Assembly: GCA_003707115.1 (NCBI GenBank)
Contig: PPNB01000033.1
Coordinates: 47,880 to 67,879 of the forward strand
DNA: 20,000 nucleotides
Direction: 5' to 3'
Source: Tortispora ganteri
Taxonomy: Eukaryota
The notes beneath the pieces were generated by a model that was given only the letters and a program-made list of their open reading frames with translations, did not search any database and was not told the DNA's origin. Positions 1 to 17,234 of this stretch are shown here, piece after piece; positions within the stretch are counted from its first letter, which is position 1; each line of letters opens with the position of its first letter. Made by a program: the position numbers and the translations under genes.

Positions 1-1752
1 TTGACATTTGCCTTGGGCATGAACACCTTTTCGGTTGATTGGATTAACACCAAAACAGGGTTCCACTTCTGGAATAACTTCTGCGACTTCTTCAGGATCA
101 TAGCTCGCTATTTTATCAGGCTGACCGTTGAACCTTGTACTTGGTTCAGTTCCGGATTCACTACTAGATGAGGAGTTGTAAAACCAGCGAAATTGGTTAT
201 TAAGACCGCCACCGGTACATGCGATCACTGAGAATTCTCCTGCTGTATCGGAAAATGATTTAACATCCTTGGAATGATCGTCATGAAAAACGTACTTAGG
301 TCTAATTCCGCGATCATAAAGTATTTTGAAAGCAAACTGGACCGTATCTTTAATGACATCTGGTTGTTCAAATTGAAGAATTTCTGGTATCCAACCATGC
401 CCAATCGGTATGCAAGACCCCTTATATTCGCAAAAAAAAATGCAACTAATGTGCTCGTGTTTCTTTCCCACTTCTGATTGAATATATACTGCCATATTTT
501 CAACGCCTTCAGCGACAAGCGGTTTCAGCAGATTCTCATAAAGACAAATAAAAGAACCTTCTAGCGCAACATCGTATCCGTCTTCAGGAAATATGTCATA
601 GTTGGGGATATCCTCATCACTGTGAAGTAAGCCAACTTCACGTTTCCCATTGATGCATTCTAAGTGACTCCGTTCAAAGCGTTCACTAGAAGCTTGAGCT
701 TCGTCTTCTAAAGTTCTAACAGTGTAGTCGCGTAATTCTTCGGTGTACTTTCGAGCAGAGATTAAAGGCTGCTCGGGGTCGCGAAGCCAAACGTAGTCTT
801 TCTGCCGATTTCGGAGATTCGTTAATTGAGCCAAAGTCATATTACAGGAAGCTTGTTTGAGTTCAGGATTTGTAGAGTTCTTCAGCGCTTGAAGTAGCTT
901 CTTCGGGCCAAGTGAAATGTTCTTGCGAATAAAACGATTGATGCCTGATACATCCCTATTTTGAGGTAAGTGTGCAGGAGTATGGTATATGTGTGAATAA
1001 GCACAGTCAAACAATTTGAGATGATTCAAATATTTAACTGTAAACTGGCCTCCTTTACAGGGATACTTTTTCCGGTTTTCGTCACTGACAGGTAGTTCAT
1101 TCAAAATCTTTGGAGGAATCTCTTGTGAGCAACTAAAGGTGTAGCTCGCGCTATTCTCGCGGTAGGACGTAGATCTGAGTACAAACTTGAAGCCAGTTTC
1201 TTCTTGGATACGATCGCGGATATGCTTGTAGATATATTCCAGTAGTTTCTTGCGATATTCTGGTGAGAATTTCCTGTTATATCTGGGTCTTTTGCGACTG
1301 CTATTCTCACTATCATCGTAGGAATCATATTCGCCGCTATTATCACTGTCATTTTCGACTTCTTCGCTATCACTAAGTTCGTCTTTGTCAGTCTCAATAA
1401 TGAATTTCGTATAAGGAAAGTCTTTCTTAGACTTATCTGCCAGGGCGTCAAGAAACTCGTTGAACAACAGCGGTTCCTCATCGATTTCGTTAAACATGCT
1501 AGAAGAGGAAAACCTATCTGCAATACGCTCATGACCCGATAACGTCATAAACTGGCGACAACGTTGTGCGCGCTTACGCTCGCGTGCTGCACGTCTGCAT
1601 TGCGCACAAGTCCGGTGCAATCCAACAGGACCATCCGCACGTGTCATCTGGACTTTGCATTGCGAACACAGTTTATATGGTATATTATTGGTTATACTAC
1701 TACTCTTATGTTTCACAGTCGAGTCTTCTAAAACGTTACGAGTAGAGTCCAT
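1..1752 (-). CDS. Probable MULE (Mutator-like) transposase-derived DNA-binding protein; >=584 aa, 3' end outside the window
   Basis: Hand translation from ATG at 1752-1750 is open to base 1 (MDSTRNVLEDSTVKHKSSSITNNIPYKLCSQCKVQ...RKGVHAQGKCQ). It is absent from the ORF track, presumably because no stop codon lies in the window. It contains C-x2-C-x16-C-x2-C plus a basic helix (1561-1668), an acidic tract, an NLS-like RKRPR, and a WRKY/GCM1-like TGFKF...C-x23-C-x21-H-x2-H (982-1197). Further on are WLRDPEQPLISA and the MULE-core-like KGSCIPIGHGWI...LYDRGIRPKYVFHDD (277-424). The ORF is seen directly; the family assignment is inference. Confidence 0.65.
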   Translation of the reverse strand, partial: MDSTRNVLEDSTVKHKSSSITNNIPYKLCSQCKVQMTRADGPVGLHRTCAQCRRAARERKRAQRCRQFMTLSGHERIADRFSSSSMFNEIDEEPLLFNEFLDALADKSKKDFPYTKFIIETDKDELSDSEEVENDSDNSGEYDSYDDSENSSRKRPRYNRKFSPEYRKKLLEYIYKHIRDRIQEETGFKFVLRSTSYRENSASYTFSCSQEIPPKILNELPVSDENRKKYPCKGGQFTVKYLNHLKLFDCAYSHIYHTPAHLPQNRDVSGINRFIRKNISLGPKKLLQALKNSTNPELKQASCNMTLAQLTNLRNRQKDYVWLRDPEQPLISARKYTEELRDYTVRTLEDEAQASSERFERSHLECINGKREVGLLHSDEDIPNYDIFPEDGYDVALEGSFICLYENLLKPLVAEGVENMAVYIQSEVGKKHEHISCIFFCEYKGSCIPIGHGWIPEILQFEQPDVIKDTVQFAFKILYDRGIRPKYVFHDDHSKDVKSFSDTAGEFSVIACTGGGLNNQFRWFYNSSSSSESGTEPSTRFNGQPDKIASYDPEEVAEVIPEVEPCFGVNPINRKGVHAQGKCQ

Positions 1753-2058
1753 TACTAATCGAGCAGGAAGCAAGCCGCGATGATCTCTCAATGCCTTTAG
1801 CGTTCATGAGATTGAGACTTTGATGCTGGTGTAGTTCTGTTTCTATAGCAACCAACAACTTGCCTGCCTCATGCGTCCTCCCCCCACCCATCGACCTATC
1901 CATCTAGCTATCTATCCACCTTCCGGAATCTAGTCGCCTCTGATTATTGGGCCTCCCTGCTACTCGAAGTCACAGCCTGTATTTGCATCAGGTGGACCTT
2001 TGTGAAGAATTACTAGTCAAGTCTTTAAGACGGCGGTAGCTGCACCTTTGTAAACACA

Positions 2059-5000
2059 ATGCCTGCGCCTTCTATCGTACTTACTCCGGCTGAGAAAAGC
2101 CTCTTTGCACAGCTTTTCCGCGCTGCCGATACCGACGGCGTTGGCGTGGTCACTGGCAATTCAGCAAGATCTCTTTTCGAAAAGTCCGGTCTTTCGCCTC
2201 TGCAACTAGGTGAGATATGGCAACTTTCCGATACCGAGAACGCCGGATTTCTAACCCAATTAGGCTTCTCTATCGCATGTCGTCTAATCGGTCATGTGCA
2301 GCACGGCAAGCCTACTAGAGCAGAACTTATATCTTCTCCCGGACCGTTACCTCGTTTTGATGGCATTAAACCTTCTCTGACAACTGCGCCGACTGCGTCC
2401 AACGCTGCTGCTGCTGCTTCGTCCTATAGGAATCCTCTCATAGATTCAGCTACGGATGCCGGATCCTCCGTTCCTCCTTTAAACTCAGCCGACAGGTCTC
2501 GATTTGCATCTCTGTTTGAGCGGACTGCTCCTGATGGTATTCTTTCGGGTGATAAGGCTCGGGAAATTTTTCTCAAGGCGCGCCTATCACCTGAGGTTCT
2601 CGGCCAAATATGGAATCTCGCTGACTTGAAGCAACGCGGCTTTTTAGAGAAGTCGGAATTCATCGTCGCGATGCACCTCATTCAAAATTGTCTGAATGGT
2701 TCTTTGAAATCTATTCCTAGTGCTATACCGCACTCTATTTATGCTGCTGCTGAAGGTGCAATCAATCCTGAACCTGTCGTCGACCTGTTTAACACCTCTC
2801 CGAAGGCACTGAATGCTAAGCCCCCTGCGCCGAATCCAAGGCATTCTATTACTTCACCTATTATCTCGGAAGCGGTGCAATCTTCTGATCGCAACAATTT
2901 CACGATGCCGCTTTCTTCTGAGCCCGCTTTTGCGGAACCACTTCCCGTGCCGCTTTCAGCCCGAGACCGATCCCGCTTTCAATCTCTCTTCAAATCTCTT
3001 GACACTAATCACTCCGGTCAAATTGGACCTAACGAAGCAGTACCATTTTTGAAAAAGTCAAACTTGTCTGATACTATCCTAGCACAAATATGGGACTTGT
3101 CAGATAGACACAACACCGGAACTTTTGACCAAGATGATTTCTGCGTTGCAATGTACTTTGTTGAACAAGCTTTGCATGGTAAGCCTCTACCATCTTCTAT
3201 CGCAGAAGTGTCGCCTAATATTGCTAATGAAAAACCTTCTTATCAAACCTCAACCACTCCAGTTGCACCTATGAGCCCCCCTGCAGGCCAGAAGAAAACT
3301 ACTTTGGATGAATTGTTTGATTTAAATGATGCGTTTAGCTCTTCTCCGGGTTTGCAAAATGATTTCACTGGATCATCTGCCAATTCGCAACCACTAACTG
3401 GAAGAGCATTGTCGAATGTTGTCTCACCAAGGGGCTCTGTCTTTGTTCCGCAATCCTCATTTGGGCAGCAAATGGCTGCTAACATCAAAAAGGTACCTAT
3501 GGAATCATTTGAATCTGTTACAGCATTAGGCAAATCTTCTAAAGCCTCTAATCCAGTTGTCACGCCTGTTAAGGCTCCTGAATCTGCATCTAGCTCGACT
3601 TTTGTCTCTGCGCCTGCACTTGCACCTGAGAGGGATCTTCTTGATTCTACAGATGATGTAGCAGTTCCCCAGGAAGCAACAGCTCTAGCTAACCTTGGCA
3701 ATCAGGTTTCGTCTCTAACGAGCCAAACTCAGGGTCTTGTAAATAAGCGCTCTAGCCTGGAAGAGTCTGCTAGTTTGGCGAGCAAAGCCAAAAGCGAAAT
3801 TGAGGCGAAATTATCTCAATTGCGACAAATATATGATGTTGAAGTGATAAAAGTGCAAGAGGCAGAGGCTCGGTTGGAACAATCACGCAAAGAAACATTG
3901 GATTTGCGTCGCGACTTCTCTGTATTAGAAGCTACTTATCATGCTTTGCAAGCACGTTACCAGGAAACTTCATCTGCATTGGAATTGGACCAAAATGAAA
4001 ATTTGGCCCTTAAAGAGAAAATCAAAGTGACCAACGAAGAGATTTCTCGTCTTAACGTTGAGCTTGAAAAGTTAGAGAAGGAGTCTCGACACGTTAAAGG
4101 ACTGATTGCTATCAACAAAAAGCAATTTGCTACTGTGGAGGGCACTATGGCTTCTTCTCAAGCGGAAGCTGCTACTTTACGGCATGAGATACAAGATGCG
4201 CAGCAAGAATTATCCTCCTTTAAGAATAACAAAGAGATAACCGCAACGGACGCTGGTGCTTCCTTTACAAAGTCACATCCAAGTTCATCTCAAGACAACA
4301 TTCTCTATCCTGTAAGTGATGCTATTCAAAGCGATGGACTGAATTTGCATGCCGAAAGTGAGACAGAAGATGTGGGTGAAAATGTATCGCGTTCTCTCAA
4401 TACCGGTAACGTTGCTGCGACAATGTCACCGTCCTCTTCCAGTGGACCAAGTTTGGACACCAACATCTCTTCACTCCCTCCTCCTGATGCCAGTACAGGA
4501 TTTTCTTCATCAATGATGCCATTAGTTACCGGAGTTTCGAATGTCAACTCTGTATTATTTGCACGTTCTGGATCTGTTTCGTCTTCTGTCCAAAACAATG
4601 CACCATTGTCGGTGCGAGGTGACATTGATACGTCTCGACCTATAACTCCTGAGTCCAGCGTCACAAACGCGGCTCATGTGGCATCATTAGCCGATGCATC
4701 TGAAACCAATGATGCGCCATCTGACGTGTTTTCTACACAAGCTGCTGCTTCAGGGTCAGAGCAACAAAGCAGGGCAACCTCTTCTCAGGACAGTAGAGCT
4801 TCATATGAATCATTTGAGCCGGTCAATCTACCTGGAACTTTCCCTGGATCTGAAGATGATTATAGAAAGGCTGAGAGCGGTACGGTTCATGCTAGTGTTG
4901 GGGATTCCTTTAACGATCATGTTGTGGATACATACGGTTCTACTGAAAACCCTGGGTCTACTGCCACTCTCGAAGCGTCTGAGATCGAGGCGTCATCTTT

Positions 5001-5802
5001 ACCTCCCATTTCTGAAAGATTATCGATCAATGAAGAGTTTCCACCTATACATGAATTAGAAATCGATGAGTCAAGCAGCGAAACAGAGGATGAAACTGAC
5101 AATATGTATTCAGAAAGCCCCGATGCCAAATCATTGGAACCTATCGATACGGTGAAAGAAAATAGTGATGGAAGCGATATTGTTTCAAACTCTAATAATG
5201 ATATGCCCGAATTACTGCAGGTCGCTTTAGACTCTTCTTCTGCCACCACTACTCCTGCAGACCCTAATTCTGATGTGATTCATTCTCCAGTTCCTGTGCA
5301 CGCCTCTCAGTCTCTATCAGGTATCAACGGTCTAGATATGAATACCGCCAATGCTGCTGGTAATAGCGTTGTGGAAACTTCTAGAAGTGCAACTGATACT
5401 CCAGATTTTGACGATGAATTCAGCGGACTTCAAGATGCTACAGAGGAAGCAGAAGAAGCCAATCTGAGCGCCGATATTTCCTACGACATGCAAAATGAGG
5501 AATCCGTATTTGGAGATTTCAATGCATTTGCTAAACAGAACCTTGCAGGAGTAGATGTTGAAAAGATACAAGAGAGCACAGATGGTAAAGACGAATGGGA
5601 TGAGATTTTTGCTGATTTCAGTAAACCTGGGGCAGAAGCTGTCATAGAAGACGTGGCGGCGCCTATTGAACTTACTCCGCAAAGAAACGGACCGTTGGGC
5701 GAGTTGTTGTCTATGGGCTTTAAGGAAGAAGCAGCGAAGGCGGCTCTGGATACGCACGGCGGGGATCTGGCTCAAGCTACTAACTATCTTCTAGACAGCT
5801 AG
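2059..5802 (+). CDS. EDE1: EH-domain endocytic scaffold Ede1/Eps15 (3 EH domains, coiled coil, C-terminal UBA)
   Basis: 1247-aa ORF. Three EH repeats (LGEIWQLSD, LGQIWNLAD, LAQIWDLSD), a central coiled coil, the conserved EEFPPIHELEIDES and DEWDEIF motifs, and a UBA domain LLSMGF...GGDLAQATNYLLD. Confidence 0.96.
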   Translation: MPAPSIVLTPAEKSLFAQLFRAADTDGVGVVTGNSARSLFEKSGLSPLQLGEIWQLSDTENAGFLTQLGFSIACRLIGHVQHGKPTRAELISSPGPLPRFDGIKPSLTTAPTASNAAAAASSYRNPLIDSATDAGSSVPPLNSADRSRFASLFERTAPDGILSGDKAREIFLKARLSPEVLGQIWNLADLKQRGFLEKSEFIVAMHLIQNCLNGSLKSIPSAIPHSIYAAAEGAINPEPVVDLFNTSPKALNAKPPAPNPRHSITSPIISEAVQSSDRNNFTMPLSSEPAFAEPLPVPLSARDRSRFQSLFKSLDTNHSGQIGPNEAVPFLKKSNLSDTILAQIWDLSDRHNTGTFDQDDFCVAMYFVEQALHGKPLPSSIAEVSPNIANEKPSYQTSTTPVAPMSPPAGQKKTTLDELFDLNDAFSSSPGLQNDFTGSSANSQPLTGRALSNVVSPRGSVFVPQSSFGQQMAANIKKVPMESFESVTALGKSSKASNPVVTPVKAPESASSSTFVSAPALAPERDLLDSTDDVAVPQEATALANLGNQVSSLTSQTQGLVNKRSSLEESASLASKAKSEIEAKLSQLRQIYDVEVIKVQEAEARLEQSRKETLDLRRDFSVLEATYHALQARYQETSSALELDQNENLALKEKIKVTNEEISRLNVELEKLEKESRHVKGLIAINKKQFATVEGTMASSQAEAATLRHEIQDAQQELSSFKNNKEITATDAGASFTKSHPSSSQDNILYPVSDAIQSDGLNLHAESETEDVGENVSRSLNTGNVAATMSPSSSSGPSLDTNISSLPPPDASTGFSSSMMPLVTGVSNVNSVLFARSGSVSSSVQNNAPLSVRGDIDTSRPITPESSVTNAAHVASLADASETNDAPSDVFSTQAAASGSEQQSRATSSQDSRASYESFEPVNLPGTFPGSEDDYRKAESGTVHASVGDSFNDHVVDTYGSTENPGSTATLEASEIEASSLPPISERLSINEEFPPIHELEIDESSSETEDETDNMYSESPDAKSLEPIDTVKENSDGSDIVSNSNNDMPELLQVALDSSSATTTPADPNSDVIHSPVPVHASQSLSGINGLDMNTANAAGNSVVETSRSATDTPDFDDEFSGLQDATEEAEEANLSADISYDMQNEESVFGDFNAFAKQNLAGVDVEKIQESTDGKDEWDEIFADFSKPGAEAVIEDVAAPIELTPQRNGPLGELLSMGFKEEAAKAALDTHGGDLAQATNYLLDS

Positions 5803-5861: not shown

Positions 5862-6557
5862 TCATTGTATTTCCGATACGTGATCAGGTTCGTGGAAAGT
5901 AGGGGAGCAATGTGCTAATGTGACTCTTTTGTGATTTCTACCTCTAAGAGAGAGGTTCTGAAGCCAGGCAAAAAATTGAGGAGCAACAAAGAGGTACGCT
6001 GATATGGCGACGAGAGCAACTAGCGCGATTATAGATGTGAGTGATCTGGGCACCAGGCCAAAGAGTAGTGGGTCGAAAGCAATGTCAAACGTTAGTAGCT
6101 GAGGCACAGTAGATAAAGAGAGATTGAACGGTACGTATGTGGGTGTAAAAGTCAAGGTTAGCATGTAATTGTCAGATTGAACTTTTAAGTCGCAGGGCGG
6201 AGACGCTGGTAGACTGACACGCAGGGAATAGCGGTTCGCGGGGATGCGATCTGTAGCGTAGCGACGCACTACTGGCCTAGGTAGATACACATCAGTCATG
6301 TTAGGGTCTAACAGTGCGTTATCAGGATAGGAGATGTTATCATAATATGCATGCTTATCATAAATCAGCGAAACCATGTCTGTGAATGTTAAAGGGTATA
6401 CTGCAGCCAAAGACGGGCTAACTTTGATCGGGAAAATGGGGGAATCATTGGGCGGCAGCAGGGCTGGAGGGTCGCTAGAAGTACCAACAAACTCCACTGT
6501 AATAATCTCAGTGTTCGCTAAAACATAAGTGATAAATATAGGTACCAGAAGTAGCAT
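5862..6557 (-). CDS. Pga1-like GPI-mannosyltransferase II co-activator (ER type I membrane protein)
   Basis: First ATG is at 6557; the track's start at 6605 is a non-ATG codon. Signal peptide MLLLVPIFITYVLA-NTE, then RYSLRVSLPASPPCDL and FDIAFDPLLFGLVPRSL followed by one C-terminal TM helix. This matches the pattern I recall for fungal Pga1-family proteins. Confidence 0.65.
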   Translation of the reverse strand: MLLLVPIFITYVLANTEIITVEFVGTSSDPPALLPPNDSPIFPIKVSPSLAAVYPLTFTDMVSLIYDKHAYYDNISYPDNALLDPNMTDVYLPRPVVRRYATDRIPANRYSLRVSLPASPPCDLKVQSDNYMLTLTFTPTYVPFNLSLSTVPQLLTFDIAFDPLLFGLVPRSLTSIIALVALVAISAYLFVAPQFFAWLQNLSLRGRNHKRVTLAHCSPTFHEPDHVSEIQ

Positions 6558-6654: not shown

Positions 6655-7188
6655 ATGTCTGTAGACGAAGCAACATTTGTCCGTGCTTATTTAAGCCTCT
6701 TGAATAGTAAATCTATTGGCTCGCGTACATTTGATGGTGGCGCTCCAGAAATTTTGCCGCCGCTAGATAATATGAAAGCGCAGGCGATCGACCAGAACAC
6801 CGATGACTGCCTAGTGTCAGTGAGTGTTAAGACATTGCGGCCGCCTGTTAAGTCCACAGAAATAACTCTGAAGCCTACAGACACTGTGTTTTATTTGAAA
6901 GAGCAACTGAAAAAAGTGGCTGGCTTTGAGAATGTTCTCAAATTGTTGATTAAGGGAAAAGTTCTCAAAGATTCGATGCAGATCAGAGAGGCGTATGATG
7001 GCACGTCAACAATCATAGCGATGTTGGGTACTACTCCAACTGCTAACGAAATGAAGATGCAATCTTGTGCACAATTTGAGATGACGGACAAAGTCTGGAG
7101 CGAAATTCGCAATTGTCTCGTCAAATCGGATAATGTTCCGAACAACGCTGTCGATGATATACTGCAGCGATTGAAGCAAAACTGGTGA
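6655..7188 (+). CDS. GET5: Get5/Mdy2 ubiquitin-like protein of the GET tail-anchored protein pathway
   Basis: N-terminal EATFVRAYLSLL (Get4-binding helix), a central Ubl domain (VSVKTLRPP...TVFYLKEQL...KLLIKGKVLKD), and a C-terminal dimerisation motif VWSEIRNCL...LQRLKQNW. Confidence 0.85.
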   Translation: MSVDEATFVRAYLSLLNSKSIGSRTFDGGAPEILPPLDNMKAQAIDQNTDDCLVSVSVKTLRPPVKSTEITLKPTDTVFYLKEQLKKVAGFENVLKLLIKGKVLKDSMQIREAYDGTSTIIAMLGTTPTANEMKMQSCAQFEMTDKVWSEIRNCLVKSDNVPNNAVDDILQRLKQNW

Positions 7189-7398: not shown

Positions 7399-8454
7399 AT
7401 GTTCAATTTGCACGCCTTCCATAATCCTAATCAGAAGTTTCACGACTATTTCCGATGCTACCCGATATCTATGATGGCTGGTCCGTCAAGAGAGTCGCTG
7501 AACTACGGTGGTAAAATTATCTTACCACCGAGTGCGCTGGATAGATTGTCTCGCCTCAATATCACGTATCCTATGCTGTTTGAACTCAAGAACGAATTCT
7601 CTGGAAAGATTACATATTCTGGTGTTCTTGAGTTTATAGCTGAAGAGGGAAGGGTCTATTTGCCTAACTGGATGCTTAGATCTTTAGGACTAGGCTCTGG
7701 CGAACTCATAGTTATCGAATCTGCTACTTTAATGCAAGGTTCGTTTTTGAAAATACAGCCTCAATCAACTGATTTTCTCGATATTTCTGACCCAAAAGCT
7801 GTATTGGAAAATTCTCTCAGGAACTTTAGTACACTCACTGTTGACGATATCTTTGAAATATCTTATAATGATCATATCTACGCTATCAAAGTGCTGGAAG
7901 TAAGACCGGAATCAGATTCTCACTCGATATCGGTTGTGGAGACTGACATAGAAGTTGATTTTGCCCCGCCCGTGGGCTACGTCGAGCCAAATCCTGCATC
8001 CAGTATATCTACAGCTGCTTCGCGAAGTATGACGCCAGCAATTAATACGCCTGGTGCTATGGCTGCCACAATAGGCTACAACGATATGCTGGCATCTGCT
8101 TCGCAATCTTCTCTATCGTCGTTTCAAGGCCAGGGCCAACGTTTGTCTGGCCGATCACGATCCGTTATACCTTCACCAGCATCTACTGATGCTAAACCAG
8201 CTACCGTATCTGCACATCTGCAAGCCGATAGCACGCCTCTGCCTCTGAATTTGAGCTACGGTACTTTCTTTTTTGGGTTTCCGATAATCCCTGTGCCAGC
8301 TGAAACGAGCAACGACGATACTCCGGAACTGTCTGAGTCGCAGGTATTCGCAGGCGTCGGCCAGAGTCTTCGCACGAACCGTAAACGCAAAGAGAGCAGT
8401 GAACAGTCTAGAAGAGTACGCCAGCACTCCGCAGACGCTATCGAAGTCGATTGA
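7399..8454 (+). CDS. UFD1: Ubiquitin fusion degradation protein Ufd1 (Cdc48 cofactor)
   Basis: FRCYPISMM, NYGGKIILPPSALDRL, YPMLFEL, GVLEFIAEEGRVYLP and QPQSTDFLDISDPKAVLENSLRNFSTLT, plus SHP-box-like FQGQGQRL and FAGVGQSL. An in-frame TAA at 7390 lies just upstream of the ATG at 7399. Confidence 0.97.
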   Translation: MFNLHAFHNPNQKFHDYFRCYPISMMAGPSRESLNYGGKIILPPSALDRLSRLNITYPMLFELKNEFSGKITYSGVLEFIAEEGRVYLPNWMLRSLGLGSGELIVIESATLMQGSFLKIQPQSTDFLDISDPKAVLENSLRNFSTLTVDDIFEISYNDHIYAIKVLEVRPESDSHSISVVETDIEVDFAPPVGYVEPNPASSISTAASRSMTPAINTPGAMAATIGYNDMLASASQSSLSSFQGQGQRLSGRSRSVIPSPASTDAKPATVSAHLQADSTPLPLNLSYGTFFFGFPIIPVPAETSNDDTPELSESQVFAGVGQSLRTNRKRKESSEQSRRVRQHSADAIEVD

Positions 8455-16499: not shown

Positions 16500-17234
16500 A
16501 TGCAAAACGAGATTGTCATCTCGACAGGGAATGTGATTCGAGCTGGGGACGGCGCTCAAAGTGTTGACGAAGAGATCGAAGCCAGAGTAGCAAGGTATCT
16601 CGAGACAAACAAAAGCTTGAAGAGTAACGTCATACCGCCCGAAAACGAACCGTATTGTGTCTCCAAAGATGACAATGATGAGACAGATAGGTATAATACT
16701 GTGCTAAAAGTTATTGTTGCGGAGAAAGATAGTGAGCTCGAAAGCAGCAAAAGAGTTATCGAATGCATGAAGAAGGAGTTATCTGCATCTCTGAAAATTG
16801 ATACAGTTGTGATATCGCGAAGAGGTGGTGGTGGACACTTAAAGGAGCTAGCTGCGATACTGAGGTACTTGAGGGAAGAGAGAATTAATGGATGTGGTAT
16901 TGCTGATTATGGCGCTGAAGAGCTCGAAAGTGCAATGGAAAGCCTTAACGAAGATGATAGAAGAATGTTGGTTATAGACCAGGTTCGATGCGGAGGTTCG
17001 GAAGCTAAAGATCCAAGACTATTGCAGGTTTCGAAGAAATGGGGTATTAAATTGCTAGTTCATAATGATCCCAATTATCCAGTGTCAGAGAAAGGAAAAC
17101 AACATATTCTAGAGATGATTAATCTAAAAGGAGAAGATTATGAAATTGGATGGTGCGGCCTTATGACGGTTATCGACACTAAGAGAAATATAGTGTCCGG
17201 GCGAGGATGGTGTATTCAATTAGTATCCAGATAG
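16500..17234 (+). CDS. Divergent glutamate-cysteine ligase modifier (regulatory) subunit, aldo-keto-reductase fold
   Basis: IVISTGNVI at the N-terminus, YNTVLKVIV, GIADYGAEEL, IDQV, GIKLLVHNDP and C-terminal W...TVIDTKRNIVSGRGW follow the order of GCLM/S. pombe Gcs2 motifs, but are considerably diverged. Confidence 0.65.
   Translation: MQNEIVISTGNVIRAGDGAQSVDEEIEARVARYLETNKSLKSNVIPPENEPYCVSKDDNDETDRYNTVLKVIVAEKDSELESSKRVIECMKKELSASLKIDTVVISRRGGGGHLKELAAILRYLREERINGCGIADYGAEELESAMESLNEDDRRMLVIDQVRCGGSEAKDPRLLQVSKKWGIKLLVHNDPNYPVSEKGKQHILEMINLKGEDYEIGWCGLMTVIDTKRNIVSGRGWCIQLVSR

What the first reader, a model, noticed from the sequence alone, without database searches (positions are those of the whole stretch)
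1..1752. Hidden ORF: probable domesticated Mutator transposase turned transcription factor
Seen: an uninterrupted >=584-codon minus-strand ORF, missed by the ORF track, head-to-head with EDE1 in a housekeeping neighbourhood. It has a C-x23-C-x21-H-x2-H module preceded by TGFKF, then WLRDPEQPLISA, then a segment resembling the MULE DDE core. Established: WRKY-GCM1-fold factors such as Aft1/Aft2, Rbf1 and plant FHY3/FAR1 derive from MULE transposases. Inference: where the first catalytic Asp is expected (xDxTYxTN-like) the protein reads MAVYIQSEVG. The second Asp seems retained (YVFHDD), and the MULE CxxH motif is replaced by VIACTGG. An intact frame with a broken active site suggests a co-opted host regulator rather than an active or decaying element.
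Basis: partly seen in the sequence, partly recalled or inferred. Interest (0 to 1): 0.8.

Follow-up and report, generated by a model that had tools for sequence, protein, structure and literature searches.

The report
Mutator-derived single-copy yeast gene
This is a real, conserved, single-copy yeast gene that most likely descends from a Mutator-type jumping-gene enzyme and now probably serves the cell as a DNA-binding protein, a kind of event already known in yeasts and plants.

Summary
The ORF and every quoted motif are present (window 1-1752, minus strand, 584 codons, open at the window edge). Its only relative among about 1.8 billion representative proteins is a 721-aa hypothetical protein of Tortispora caseinolytica (78% identity).

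Pfam, PDB sequence searches and profiles built from bacterial MULE/IS256 transposases give nothing significant. A protein-language-model atlas puts the whole protein next to MULE clusters. It puts residues 160-268 next to FAR1/AFT/GCM-type zinc fingers, with TM 0.70-0.71 to N-terminal domains of ascomycete MULE-type proteins.

Domain order, strand/helix order and the second-Asp motif fit a MULE. The Asp expected after strand 1 and the His of the CxxH motif are absent in both species.

The gene is single copy: one assembly contig runs from it into the EDE1-like neighbour. It appears to keep its place three gene models from UFD1 in T. caseinolytica. Substitutions avoid the predicted domains.

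"Domesticated MULE" is therefore well supported as to domestication and supported only by leads as to MULE ancestry. "Transcription factor" and "catalytically dead" remain inferences. This is a new member of a known kind, of moderate interest.

The parts
1..1752 (-). Codons 1-584 of the gene. The ATG is at 1750-1752 and the frame runs off the window's left edge. The full length is probably about 720 aa.
   Evidence: orthologue P0002 of 721 aa with the same start; the assembly contig continues 532 nt beyond window position 1
1555..1671 (-). Residues 28-66: a C-x2-C-x16-C-x2-C zinc-ribbon-like module followed by an Arg/Lys-rich stretch (a possible nuclear localisation or DNA-contact segment). 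It is 92% identical between the two species.
   Evidence: only weak generic zinc-ribbon Pfam matches, E 0.03-0.07 and below cut-off
1297..1395 (-). Residues 120-152: an acidic, Ser-rich, poorly conserved linker. In the wider stretch 120-160, 15 of 41 residues are Asp or Glu. It could be an activation region; this is inference only.
952..1272 (-). Residues 161-267: the putative WRKY-GCM1 (FAR1/AFT-like, insert-containing) zinc-finger domain. An N-terminal helix and TGFKF are followed by C208-x23-C232-x21-H254-x2-H257.
   Evidence: spacing; atlas part search gave FAR1 0.86, AFT, GCM, ZSWIM3_N and DBD_Tnp_Mut clusters, and TM 0.70-0.71 to ascomycete clusters including a MULE cluster; AF2 domain model shows helix plus three strands at pLDDT 61; no Pfam match
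751..951 (-). Residues 268-334: a helical segment between the finger and the core, including WLRDPEQPLISA. It is 85% identical between species and was the best-modelled part of the full-length AF2 model.
166..555 (-). Residues 400-529: the putative degenerate RNase H-like (MULE-type) core. The predicted element order is strand, strand, strand, helix, strand. It is 85% identical between species.
   Evidence: secondary structure of the low-confidence model; atlas whole-protein neighbours; hhalign local match at the second-Asp motif; identity
466..495 (-). MAVYIQSEVG (residues 420-429), where the first catalytic Asp is expected from the spacing to the second Asp. No acidic residue is conserved here: Tyr, Gln and Glu in this protein face Phe, Glu and Gly in the orthologue.
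   Evidence: the position is inferred and the alignment is uncertain (one search aligns this part differently)
277..294 (-). YVFHDD (residues 487-492): the retained second acidic motif after strand 4.
   Evidence: aligned to the S-D motif of bacterial PF10551-bearing transposases
208..228 (-). VIACTGG (residues 509-515): the Cys of the MULE/IS256 C-x2-H motif is kept, and the His position is Gly in both species.
1753..2058 (.). The 306-bp intergenic region shared with the divergent EDE1-like gene. No inverted-repeat arm was found in it.
2059..5802 (+). The divergent neighbour, an Ede1-like endocytosis scaffold with three EH domains. It is context only.

Best explanation
The ORF is a genuine single-copy host gene restricted, as far as can be seen, to the Tortispora lineage. 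It most likely descends from a Mutator-like (MULE) transposase.

Reading from the N-terminus, it has:
- an added C4 zinc-ribbon-like module with a basic stretch;
- an acidic linker;
- an insert-type WRKY-GCM1 (FAR1/AFT-like) zinc finger;
- a helical segment;
- an RNase H-like core that keeps the second Asp and the motif Cys, but lacks the Asp after strand 1 and the His after strand 5.

The most likely mode of action (inferred, not shown) is this. The two zinc modules bind specific DNA in the nucleus. The conserved but probably non-catalytic transposase body serves as a folding, oligomerisation or partner-binding scaffold, and the acidic stretch may activate transcription. That would parallel plant FHY3/FAR1, rather than cut-and-paste transposition.
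For: The gene is real and conserved.
- It is 78% identical over 585 columns, with one 1-residue gap, to T. caseinolytica ODV92232.1.
- Substitutions cluster in linkers (37-54% identity). The predicted modules are 82-94% identical.
- That unevenness was reached by 0 of 10000 column permutations.

The gene is not a repeat.
- Of two whole assemblies of about 9.5 Mb laid at 80% likeness or more, each gave only 3 pieces on window 1-4000.
- One 4061-nt contig runs from the ORF through the intergenic region into the EDE1-like gene. Its word depth is 88.5, against 94.8 for the next contig.
- The orthologue's cluster has 1 member on 1 contig.

Its place in the genome is kept.
- The orthologue (ODV92232.1) and the UFD1 orthologue (ODV92229.1, 94% identical to window 7399-8454) lie on the same 3,117,240-bp scaffold, three accession numbers apart.
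- In the window, three ORFs separate the two genes.

Its composition is host-like.
- GC is 0.419, GC3 is 0.378, and the synonymous-codon fit is 0.033, within the range 0.012-0.068 of 12 neighbours.

Leads for MULE ancestry.
- Atlas first hits score 0.92, with 193 and 199 of 256 features shared, to clusters in which 53-59% of members carry PF10551.
- 9 of the ten best family-bearing hits agree in family or clan.
- All ten structure rows are MULE, Mutator, FAR1 or ZSWIM-type clusters, at TM 0.29-0.37.
- For residues 160-268 alone, the neighbours are FAR1, ALS2CR8, GCM, ZSWIM3_N, AFT and DBD_Tnp_Mut clusters. TM is 0.70-0.71 to ascomycete clusters, including the N-terminal part of an 853-aa MULE cluster.
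- The predicted element order from residue 420 is three strands, a helix and a strand, followed by an all-helical tail. This matches the MULE core as described by Babu et al. 2006 (PMC1702500, section 10, read).
- The best local profile-profile alignment to 17 bacterial PF10551-bearing transposases falls on FKILYDRGIR-PKFVFHDD against their second-Asp motif. The extended alignment puts the Cys of CTGG on the Cys of their C-x2-H motif.
Against: Classical homology methods do not see a MULE.
- There were 0 Pfam families at E up to 10 for both orthologues, and none relevant for five fragments.
- PDB sequence searches found nothing better than E 0.17.
- An HMM of the bacterial relatives scored the real proteins (-5.2 and -5.8 bits) below the best of 500 shuffles, which reached 2.9 bits.
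- hhalign gave P 0.074 for the whole protein and 0.045 for the core, with probability about 1%. Two of 40 column-shuffled cores scored as high.

The atlas evidence comes from one language model. Whole-protein TM values are under 0.5.

No Trp lies in the expected fourth strand of the finger, and the His ligands are H-x2-H rather than H-x-H.

The loss of the first Asp rests on an uncertain alignment. Glu 406, 418 and 433 (this protein's numbering) are conserved nearby, and one search aligns strand 1 differently.

The third catalytic residue lies outside the window and is ambiguous in the orthologue.

DNA binding, nuclear location and any effect on transcription were not tested.
Confidence: 0.6

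Rival explanations
1. The gene is a domesticated MULE that still cuts DNA. It would be a host-controlled nuclease or recombinase acting at fossil transposon ends, as K. lactis alpha3 and Kat1 do in mating-type switching.
For: The second Asp pair, a Glu just after predicted strand 3 (IPEIL) and the motif Cys are all conserved in both species.

The core is as conserved (85%) as the DNA-binding modules.

Conserved Glu residues near strand 1 could stand in for the missing Asp.

Domesticated yet active MULE and hAT transposases exist in yeasts (passages in PMC4629796 and PMC5499181).
Against: The His after strand 5, called absolutely conserved in this transposase family (PMC1702500 section 10), is Gly in both species.

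No conserved acidic residue sits at the spacing expected for the first Asp.

The locus is not a mating-type locus. Its neighbours are EDE1-like, UFD1, MAF1 and MCM2 genes. Tortispora species were classed as heterothallic non-switchers (PMC6692504 passage).
Confidence: 0.15
2. The gene is not transposase-derived at all. It would be a lineage-specific zinc-finger protein whose likeness to MULEs is a false lead of the language model.
For: Pfam, PDB and profile-profile tests were all negative or non-significant.

Atlas scores of 0.9 or more occur for 4-10 in 100 shuffled proteins, by the tool's own calibration.

Whole-protein TM is only 0.29-0.37.
Against: Two separate parts point independently to the two domains that make up a MULE, and in the canonical order: finger first, core second.

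The shared-feature counts of 193 and 199 are above the 170 that the tool gives as typical for true family members.

TM is 0.70-0.71 for the finger domain.

Confidence: 0.15
3. The gene is the transposase of a still mobile or only recently immobilised autonomous MULE.
For: The reading frame is intact and long. Only one end of the gene's flanks is visible, so terminal repeats cannot be fully excluded.
Against: It is single copy, and an assembly contig runs unbroken into the neighbouring gene.

Its place relative to UFD1 is the same in a second species whose UFD1 has diverged by 6%.

Only 306 bp separate it from the EDE1-like start codon, and no inverted-repeat arm lies there.

Its codon usage is host-like.

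The first Asp and the motif His are missing in both species.
Confidence: 0.05

Closest known systems
Plant FHY3/FAR1 (FRS family): transcription factors derived from full-length MULE transposases
   Same: The proposed architecture is a FAR1-type WRKY-GCM1 finger followed by a retained MULE core. It is a single-copy host gene, and the proposed role is DNA-binding regulator. A FAR1 cluster is among the atlas neighbours of the finger (0.86), and FAR1-RELATED SEQUENCE clusters appear in both structure lists.
   Different: There is no Pfam FAR1, MULE or SWIM match here, and no C-terminal SWIM finger is visible in the orthologue. An extra N-terminal C4 zinc-ribbon-like module and an acidic linker are present. 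The lineage is fungal. The FHY3/FAR1 function is taken from a search listing and abstract start only (PMC6000157) and from recall.
K. lactis alpha3 and the T. blattae singleton TBLA0D02000: MULE-like transposase genes without terminal repeats in budding yeasts
   Same: They are full-length MULE-like, single-copy genes in Saccharomycotina that are not flanked by terminal inverted repeats (PMC4629796 passage).
   Different: Those proteins are recognisable as MULEs by sequence. Alpha3 sits at the MAT-alpha locus and is excised during mating-type switching (PMC5499181 passage). The present gene is not at a MAT locus, is unrecognisable to Pfam, and lacks the motif His.
Aft1/Aft2 (Rcs1) of Saccharomyces and Rbf1 of Candida: transcription factors with insert-type WRKY-GCM1 fingers derived from fungal MULEs
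   Same: They have the same proposed finger family, with an insert between the two Cys and a helix before the first strand. They share the same evolutionary route from fungal MULE to host factor (PMC1702500). An AFT cluster is among the atlas neighbours (0.80).
   Different: The paper groups them with stand-alone forms of the finger, whereas this protein keeps the whole transposase-sized body. The insert here is acidic rather than basic, the fourth-strand Trp is absent, and the ligands are H-x2-H.
Mutyl of Yarrowia lipolytica and Hop of Fusarium: autonomous fungal MULEs
   Same: They are the presumed kind of ancestor, with a WRKY-GCM1 finger plus a DDE core (PMC1702500 passage). Mutyl is described as the only complete, active MULE in Saccharomycotina (PMC4629796 passage).
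   Different: Those are mobile elements with terminal repeats. This gene is single copy, fixed in place, and lacks two of the family's conserved core residues.

Membership tests
MULE transposase (Pfam PF10551, Mutator superfamily) | Match to the PF10551 profile above its gathering score | tested here: not met
   0 families at E up to 10 for P0001 and P0002, and none relevant for five fragments
MULE transposase (Pfam PF10551, Mutator superfamily) | [quoted passage not shown] 2006, section 10) | tested here: inconclusive
   AF2 secondary structure gives E420-427, E436-444, E447-456, H465-481, E486-491 and then helices to the C-terminus. The model has pLDDT 33.9. Atlas structure rows are all MULE-type clusters, but at TM 0.29-0.37.
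MULE transposase (Pfam PF10551, Mutator superfamily) | Conserved acidic residue (Asp) after strand 1 | tested here: inconclusive
   At the spacing expected from the second Asp, the two species read Y-I-Q and F-I-E, with no conserved acid. The alignment is uncertain: one search aligns this part differently, and conserved Glu residues lie nearby.
MULE transposase (Pfam PF10551, Mutator superfamily) | Conserved acidic residue (Asp) after strand 4 | tested here: met
   VFHDD is conserved in both species. It aligns to the S-D motif of 17 bacterial PF10551-bearing transposases in the best hhalign segment, which is itself not significant at P 0.045-0.074.
MULE transposase (Pfam PF10551, Mutator superfamily) | Absolutely conserved His after strand 5 (the C-x2-H motif) | tested here: not met
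   Both species read C-T-G-G. The Cys aligns to the motif Cys and Gly takes the His position.
MULE transposase (Pfam PF10551, Mutator superfamily) | [quoted passage not shown] | not testable with these tools
   This region lies beyond the window's left edge. In the orthologue, candidate Glu residues exist (for example in SENLN at 678), but no reliable alignment was obtained.
MULE transposase (Pfam PF10551, Mutator superfamily) | Mobile-element features: several copies, terminal inverted repeats, target-site duplications | tested here: not met
   The gene is single copy, with a contig running into the neighbouring gene. No inverted-repeat arm lies in 1753-2058. The 3' flank is outside the window, so terminal repeats could be examined on one side only.
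WRKY-GCM1 zinc fingers, insert-containing family (FAR1/AFT type) | Match to the FAR1 (PF03101), AFT (PF08731) or DBD_Tnp_Mut (PF03108) profiles | tested here: not met
   No such match for residues 160-270 at E up to 10
WRKY-GCM1 zinc fingers, insert-containing family (FAR1/AFT type) | Ligand pattern C...C...H-x-H, with a 20-70 residue insert between the two Cys | tested here: met
   C208-x23-C232-x21-H254-x2-H257, conserved in the orthologue. The His spacing is x2 rather than x1, and the insert is acidic rather than basic.
WRKY-GCM1 zinc fingers, insert-containing family (FAR1/AFT type) | [quoted passage not shown] | tested here: inconclusive
   The AF2 domain model (pLDDT 61.4) shows helix 7-29 and three strands. 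The expected fourth strand is modelled as a low-confidence helix. The atlas model aligns at TM 0.70-0.71 to N-terminal domains of ascomycete clusters, including a MULE cluster.
WRKY-GCM1 zinc fingers, insert-containing family (FAR1/AFT type) | Conserved Trp in the fourth strand | tested here: not met
   There is no Trp between C232 and H254 in either species
WRKY-GCM1 zinc fingers, insert-containing family (FAR1/AFT type) | Fold match to solved WRKY or GCM structures | tested here: inconclusive
   Foldseek against the PDB gave no match at E 0.001 or better. VIA-align wide gave a best Z of 5.3, to generic helix-plus-sheet domains. The query model is of middling quality.
Exapted (domesticated) transposase gene | Single copy and immobile: the same genomic neighbourhood in different species | tested here: met
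   Single copy. The orthologue and the UFD1 orthologue are three accession numbers apart on the same 3.1-Mb scaffold of T. caseinolytica. This assumes that accession order follows gene order, which is recalled practice and was not checked.
Exapted (domesticated) transposase gene | Purifying selection (dN/dS well below 1) | not testable with these tools
   No DNA of the orthologue could be fetched. Indirect support comes from an intact frame in both species, one 1-residue gap, 513 of 585 positive columns, and domain-clustered conservation reached by 0 of 10000 permutations.
Exapted (domesticated) transposase gene | Expression | not testable with these tools
   No RNA run is listed for this DNA

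The most novel reading that the evidence does not exclude
The protein may not be a dead relic. It could be a host-controlled DNA-cleaving or rearranging enzyme with a rewired active site: the second Asp pair, the Glu after strand 3 and nearby conserved Glu residues are retained, while the canonical first Asp and the His are not. It would act at fossil transposon ends somewhere in the Tortispora genome, in the manner of K. lactis alpha3 and Kat1. This would be a separate recruitment of a Mutator transposase for programmed DNA breakage in an early-branching budding-yeast lineage.
Probability: 0.1. Interest if true: 0.7.

Novelty: new member of a known kind. Interest (0 to 1): 0.4.

Why it matters
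Budding yeasts have very few DNA transposons. The few known MULE-derived genes became major regulators (Aft1/Aft2, Rbf1) or mating-type switching enzymes (alpha3).

A further domestication that keeps the whole transposase body, in the small genome of the Tortispora lineage, would add a case for studying how transposases turn into host factors.

It would also give a name and a testable function to a "hypothetical protein" that Pfam and HMMER cannot classify.

Finally, it shows that apparent orphan genes in isolated lineages can be old families diverged beyond profile detection. Here the nearest UFD1 outside the genus is only 57% identical.

Tried and rejected
- Own-genome search: no genome is held for this window.
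- Pfam on both orthologues and on five fragments: nothing relevant. Residues 1-80 gave only weak generic zinc-ribbon matches.
- PDB sequence searches with the protein and with the two-sequence profile: best E 0.17-0.32, to unrelated proteins.
- Exhaustive HMMER search: the second hit, P0003 (E 5e-7), is a 1020-aa repeat protein that matches a 60-residue linker six times and has no MULE domain. I rejected it as a repeat artefact.
- Full-length AlphaFold2 with the two-sequence alignment: pLDDT 33.9. It is unfit for fold search, and I used only its secondary-structure order, with that caveat.
- AlphaFold2 of the finger domain alone: pLDDT 61.4.
  - Foldseek against the PDB gave no match at E 0.001 or better, with FtsK and Cks1 at the top.
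  - VIA-align wide gave a best Z of 5.3 (PulL, FtsK), with no WRKY or GCM chain among the 50 rows shown.
  - This is inconclusive, not evidence against.
- Bridge through bacterial relatives.
  - PF10551 matched in 76 of 301 genomes of one bacterial phylum, and 30 loci were fetched.
  - 26 of those loci gave an ORF of 250 aa or more, and I kept the 17 ORFs of 340 aa or more.
  - Their HMM did not score the yeast proteins above 500 shuffles.
  - hhalign gave P 0.074 for the whole protein and 0.045 for the core, and 2 of 40 shuffles scored as high.
- PF28944, which the atlas named for the aligned part of its best structural neighbour, is not in the local Pfam copy, so its identity stays unknown.
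- No RNA holder is listed among the sequencing runs.
- Repeat search: an 18-nt inverted pair, 1010-1027 with 6930-6947 at 89%, lies inside the ORF and in another gene's flank. I judged it chance.
- No tRNA genes in the window.
- Earlier findings: no note exists on this sequence or genome. Of two word searches, the first found nothing. The second returned only other genomes.
- Literature: the orthologue's locus tag occurs in 0 papers of the searched library. No paper holds 'MULE', 'exapted' and 'Saccharomycotina' together.
Full report
**Observation**

The minus-strand frame from window 1752 (ATG) to window 1 is open for 584 codons and runs off the left edge. The spacing C208-x23-C232-x21-H254-x2-H257 is exact.

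The divergent neighbour at 2059-5802 has three EH domains and EF-hand matches, an Ede1-like make-up. The rest of the window holds housekeeping genes: UFD1, MAF1, MCM2, a UBR-box protein, an HPPD-like dioxygenase, a small kinase and an HCS1-like helicase.

One is a C29-x2-C32-x16-C49-x2-C52 module followed by a basic stretch. The other is an acidic stretch at residues 120-152.

**Relatives**

A word-indexed search of 5.8 billion proteins found 1 protein at E 0.001 or better among 7971 candidates. It is T. caseinolytica CANCADRAFT_84138 (ODV92232.1), 721 aa and 78% identical over the whole query.

An exhaustive HMMER scan of 1.84 billion representatives found 2 proteins. One is the same protein. 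The other, P0003, is a repeat protein that matches only a 60-residue linker six times and has no MULE domain. I treat it as an artefact.

A profile of the two orthologues again found only the T. caseinolytica protein, 1 hit at E 10 or better among 8000 candidates scored.

The window's UFD1 is 94% identical to T. caseinolytica UFD1, and the next best is 57%. The two species are therefore close and the lineage is isolated. A protein that changes almost four times faster than UFD1 (22% against 6% differences) would be expected to be invisible to sequence searches outside the genus. Orphan status here does not imply recent origin.

**Is it a host gene or a mobile element?**

- Two public assemblies of about 9.5 Mb that hold this DNA were laid on window 1-4000 at 80% likeness or more. 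Both may be the source of the window and so are not independent. Each gave only three pieces.
- One 4061-nt contig covers 1-3529 without a break, from the ORF through the 306-bp spacer into the EDE1-like gene. Its word depth is 88.5, against 94.8 for the adjoining contig.
- A repeated element would break the assembly graph at its borders, raise the depth and attract further pieces. None of this is seen.
- The orthologue's cluster has one member on one contig.
- The orthologue and the UFD1 orthologue are on the same 3,117,240-bp scaffold, with protein accessions three apart (ODV92232.1 and ODV92229.1). In the window, three ORFs lie between the two genes.
- T. caseinolytica has 4657 genes (PMC5499181, table passage). 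Such closeness would arise by chance in about 0.1% of cases. This assumes that accession order follows gene order, which is common practice recalled by me and not checked.
- GC, GC3 and synonymous-codon fit of the ORF lie within the range of the 12 other ORFs.
- No inverted-repeat arm lies in the spacer. The other flank is outside the window.
- The 129 differing columns are far from evenly spread. The zinc ribbon is 92% identical, the block at 93-126 is 94%, the finger domain 82%, the helical segment 85% and the core 85%. The N-terminal tail and linkers are 37-54%. This unevenness was reached by 0 of 10000 permutations.

Together these results argue for a fixed, constrained host gene. dN/dS itself could not be computed, because no DNA of the orthologue was obtainable.

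**Is it MULE-derived?**

Classical tests are negative.
- Pfam gives no family at E up to 10 for either orthologue and none relevant for fragments.
- PDB sequence searches are empty of meaning.
- The full-length AlphaFold2 model from the two-sequence alignment is poor, at pLDDT 33.9.

To obtain a related profile I fetched bacterial PF10551-bearing transposase loci.
- PF10551 matched in 76 of 301 genomes of one phylum, and 30 loci were fetched.
- 26 of the 30 loci had an ORF of 250 aa or more, and I used the 17 ORFs of 340 aa or more.
- Their HMM scored the yeast proteins below the best of 500 shuffles.
- hhalign gave P 0.074 for the whole protein and 0.045 for the core alone. Two of 40 column-shuffled cores did as well.
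- By score, then, this is not significant.

The positive evidence is of another kind.

(i) The language-model atlas places the T. caseinolytica protein next to MULE clusters.
- Scores are 0.92, with 193 and 199 of 256 features shared. The tool states that 170 or more is typical of true family members.
- 9 of the ten best family-bearing hits share a family or clan.
- All ten rows of the search with the atlas's own structure model are MULE, Mutator, FAR1 or ZSWIM-type clusters, though at TM only 0.29-0.37.

(ii) Residues 160-268 were searched alone.
- Their neighbours are FAR1 (0.86), ALS2CR8, GCM, ZSWIM3_N, AFT and DBD_Tnp_Mut clusters.
- They align at TM 0.70-0.71 to ascomycete clusters, including the N-terminal part of an 853-aa MULE cluster. 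The aligned part of the best neighbour is labelled PF28944, a family absent from the local Pfam copy.

(iii) The two parts stand in the canonical MULE order, finger first and core second.

(iv) The predicted element order from residue 420 is three strands, a helix and a strand, then an all-helical tail (low confidence). This is the order that Babu et al. 2006 give for the MULE/TnpA catalytic domain (PMC1702500, section 10, read).

(v) The single best local hhalign segment falls on FKILYDRGIR-PKFVFHDD against the second-Asp motif of the bacterial family. The extended alignment places the Cys of C-T-G-G on the Cys of their C-x2-H motif.

I put MULE ancestry at about 0.8.

**State of the active site**

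I measured it against the features listed in PMC1702500, section 10.
- The acid after strand 4 is kept (HDD in both species).
- A Glu follows predicted strand 3 (IPEIL in both).
- The His after strand 5 is Gly in both.
- At the spacing expected for the first Asp, the two species read Y-I-Q and F-I-E, with no conserved acid.
- The last point depends on an alignment that hhalign does not reproduce. Conserved Glu residues lie within 15 residues on either side.
- The third catalytic residue is beyond the window and ambiguous in the orthologue.

A dead core is therefore likely but not shown.

**Finger domain**

- The ligand pattern and the 23-residue insert fit the insert-containing WRKY-GCM1 family of FAR1, Aft and Rbf1. 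So does a helix before the first strand, seen in an AlphaFold2 model of the domain alone at pLDDT 61.4.
- The insert is acidic rather than basic, the fourth-strand Trp is missing and the His spacing is x2.
- PDB fold searches with my model returned only generic helix-plus-sheet matches. Foldseek found nothing at E 0.001 or better, and the VIA-align best Z was 5.3.
- I count this as inconclusive, because the part carrying the His ligands is poorly modelled.

**Mechanism proposed (inferred)**

The protein would be nuclear and would bind DNA through the C4 ribbon, its basic stretch and the WRKY-GCM1-type finger. The conserved transposase body would act as a scaffold, and the acidic linker could act as an activation region. 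Rivals are listed with their odds. An active domesticated nuclease of the alpha3/Kat1 kind is the most interesting one.

**Comparison with what is known**

- MULE-to-host transitions in fungi were described for Aft1/Aft2 and Rbf1 (PMC1702500, passages and section 10).
- Single-copy MULE-like genes without terminal repeats are known in K. lactis (alpha3) and T. blattae. Mutyl of Yarrowia is described as the only complete, active MULE in Saccharomycotina (PMC4629796, passages; PMC5499181, passages).
- Plant FHY3/FAR1 were seen only as a search listing (PMC6000157); the rest about them is recalled.
- No paper in the searched library mentions the orthologue's locus tag.
It concerns another genome and was not tested here.

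**Verdict**

The finding is a new member of a known kind. Interest is moderate.

Noticed in passing
window 1555-1671 (-): The gene has an N-terminal C-x2-C-x16-C-x2-C module followed by an Arg/Lys-rich stretch. It is 92% identical between the two species. Only weak generic zinc-ribbon Pfam matches were found (E 0.03-0.07).
   Followed up: partly
window 5862-6557 (-), 6655-7188 (+), 16500-17234 (+): Three ORFs of 231, 177 and 244 aa have no Pfam family at E 1e-5 or better. T. caseinolytica seems to have only two gene models where the window has three ORFs between the MULE-like gene and UFD1, because the accessions are 3 apart. One of the two small ORFs may therefore not be a gene, or may be unannotated there.
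   Followed up: no
window 2802 (inside the EDE1-like gene): Both public assemblies that hold this DNA read A where the window has G. This is a single-base difference between the window record and the contigs.
   Followed up: no
window 3500-3529: Both runs contain a 54-nt, low-depth (2.3) contig whose loose 24 letters look like a sequencing-adapter remnant. The main contig also breaks here. This is an assembly artefact rather than biology.
   Followed up: no
P0039 (hit of the UFD1 search): A UFD1 protein 50% identical to the yeast query is labelled in NCBI as coming from an 'Asgard group archaeon' MAG. Its cluster was seen on 81 contigs from several sources. It looks like fungal DNA binned into an archaeal MAG.
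   Followed up: no
window 7399-8454 (+) and the whole window: UFD1 is 94% identical to T. caseinolytica UFD1 but at most 57% identical to any other listed species. The window's organism is a close relative of T. caseinolytica in an otherwise isolated lineage. This explains why fast-evolving genes here look like orphans.
   Followed up: partly
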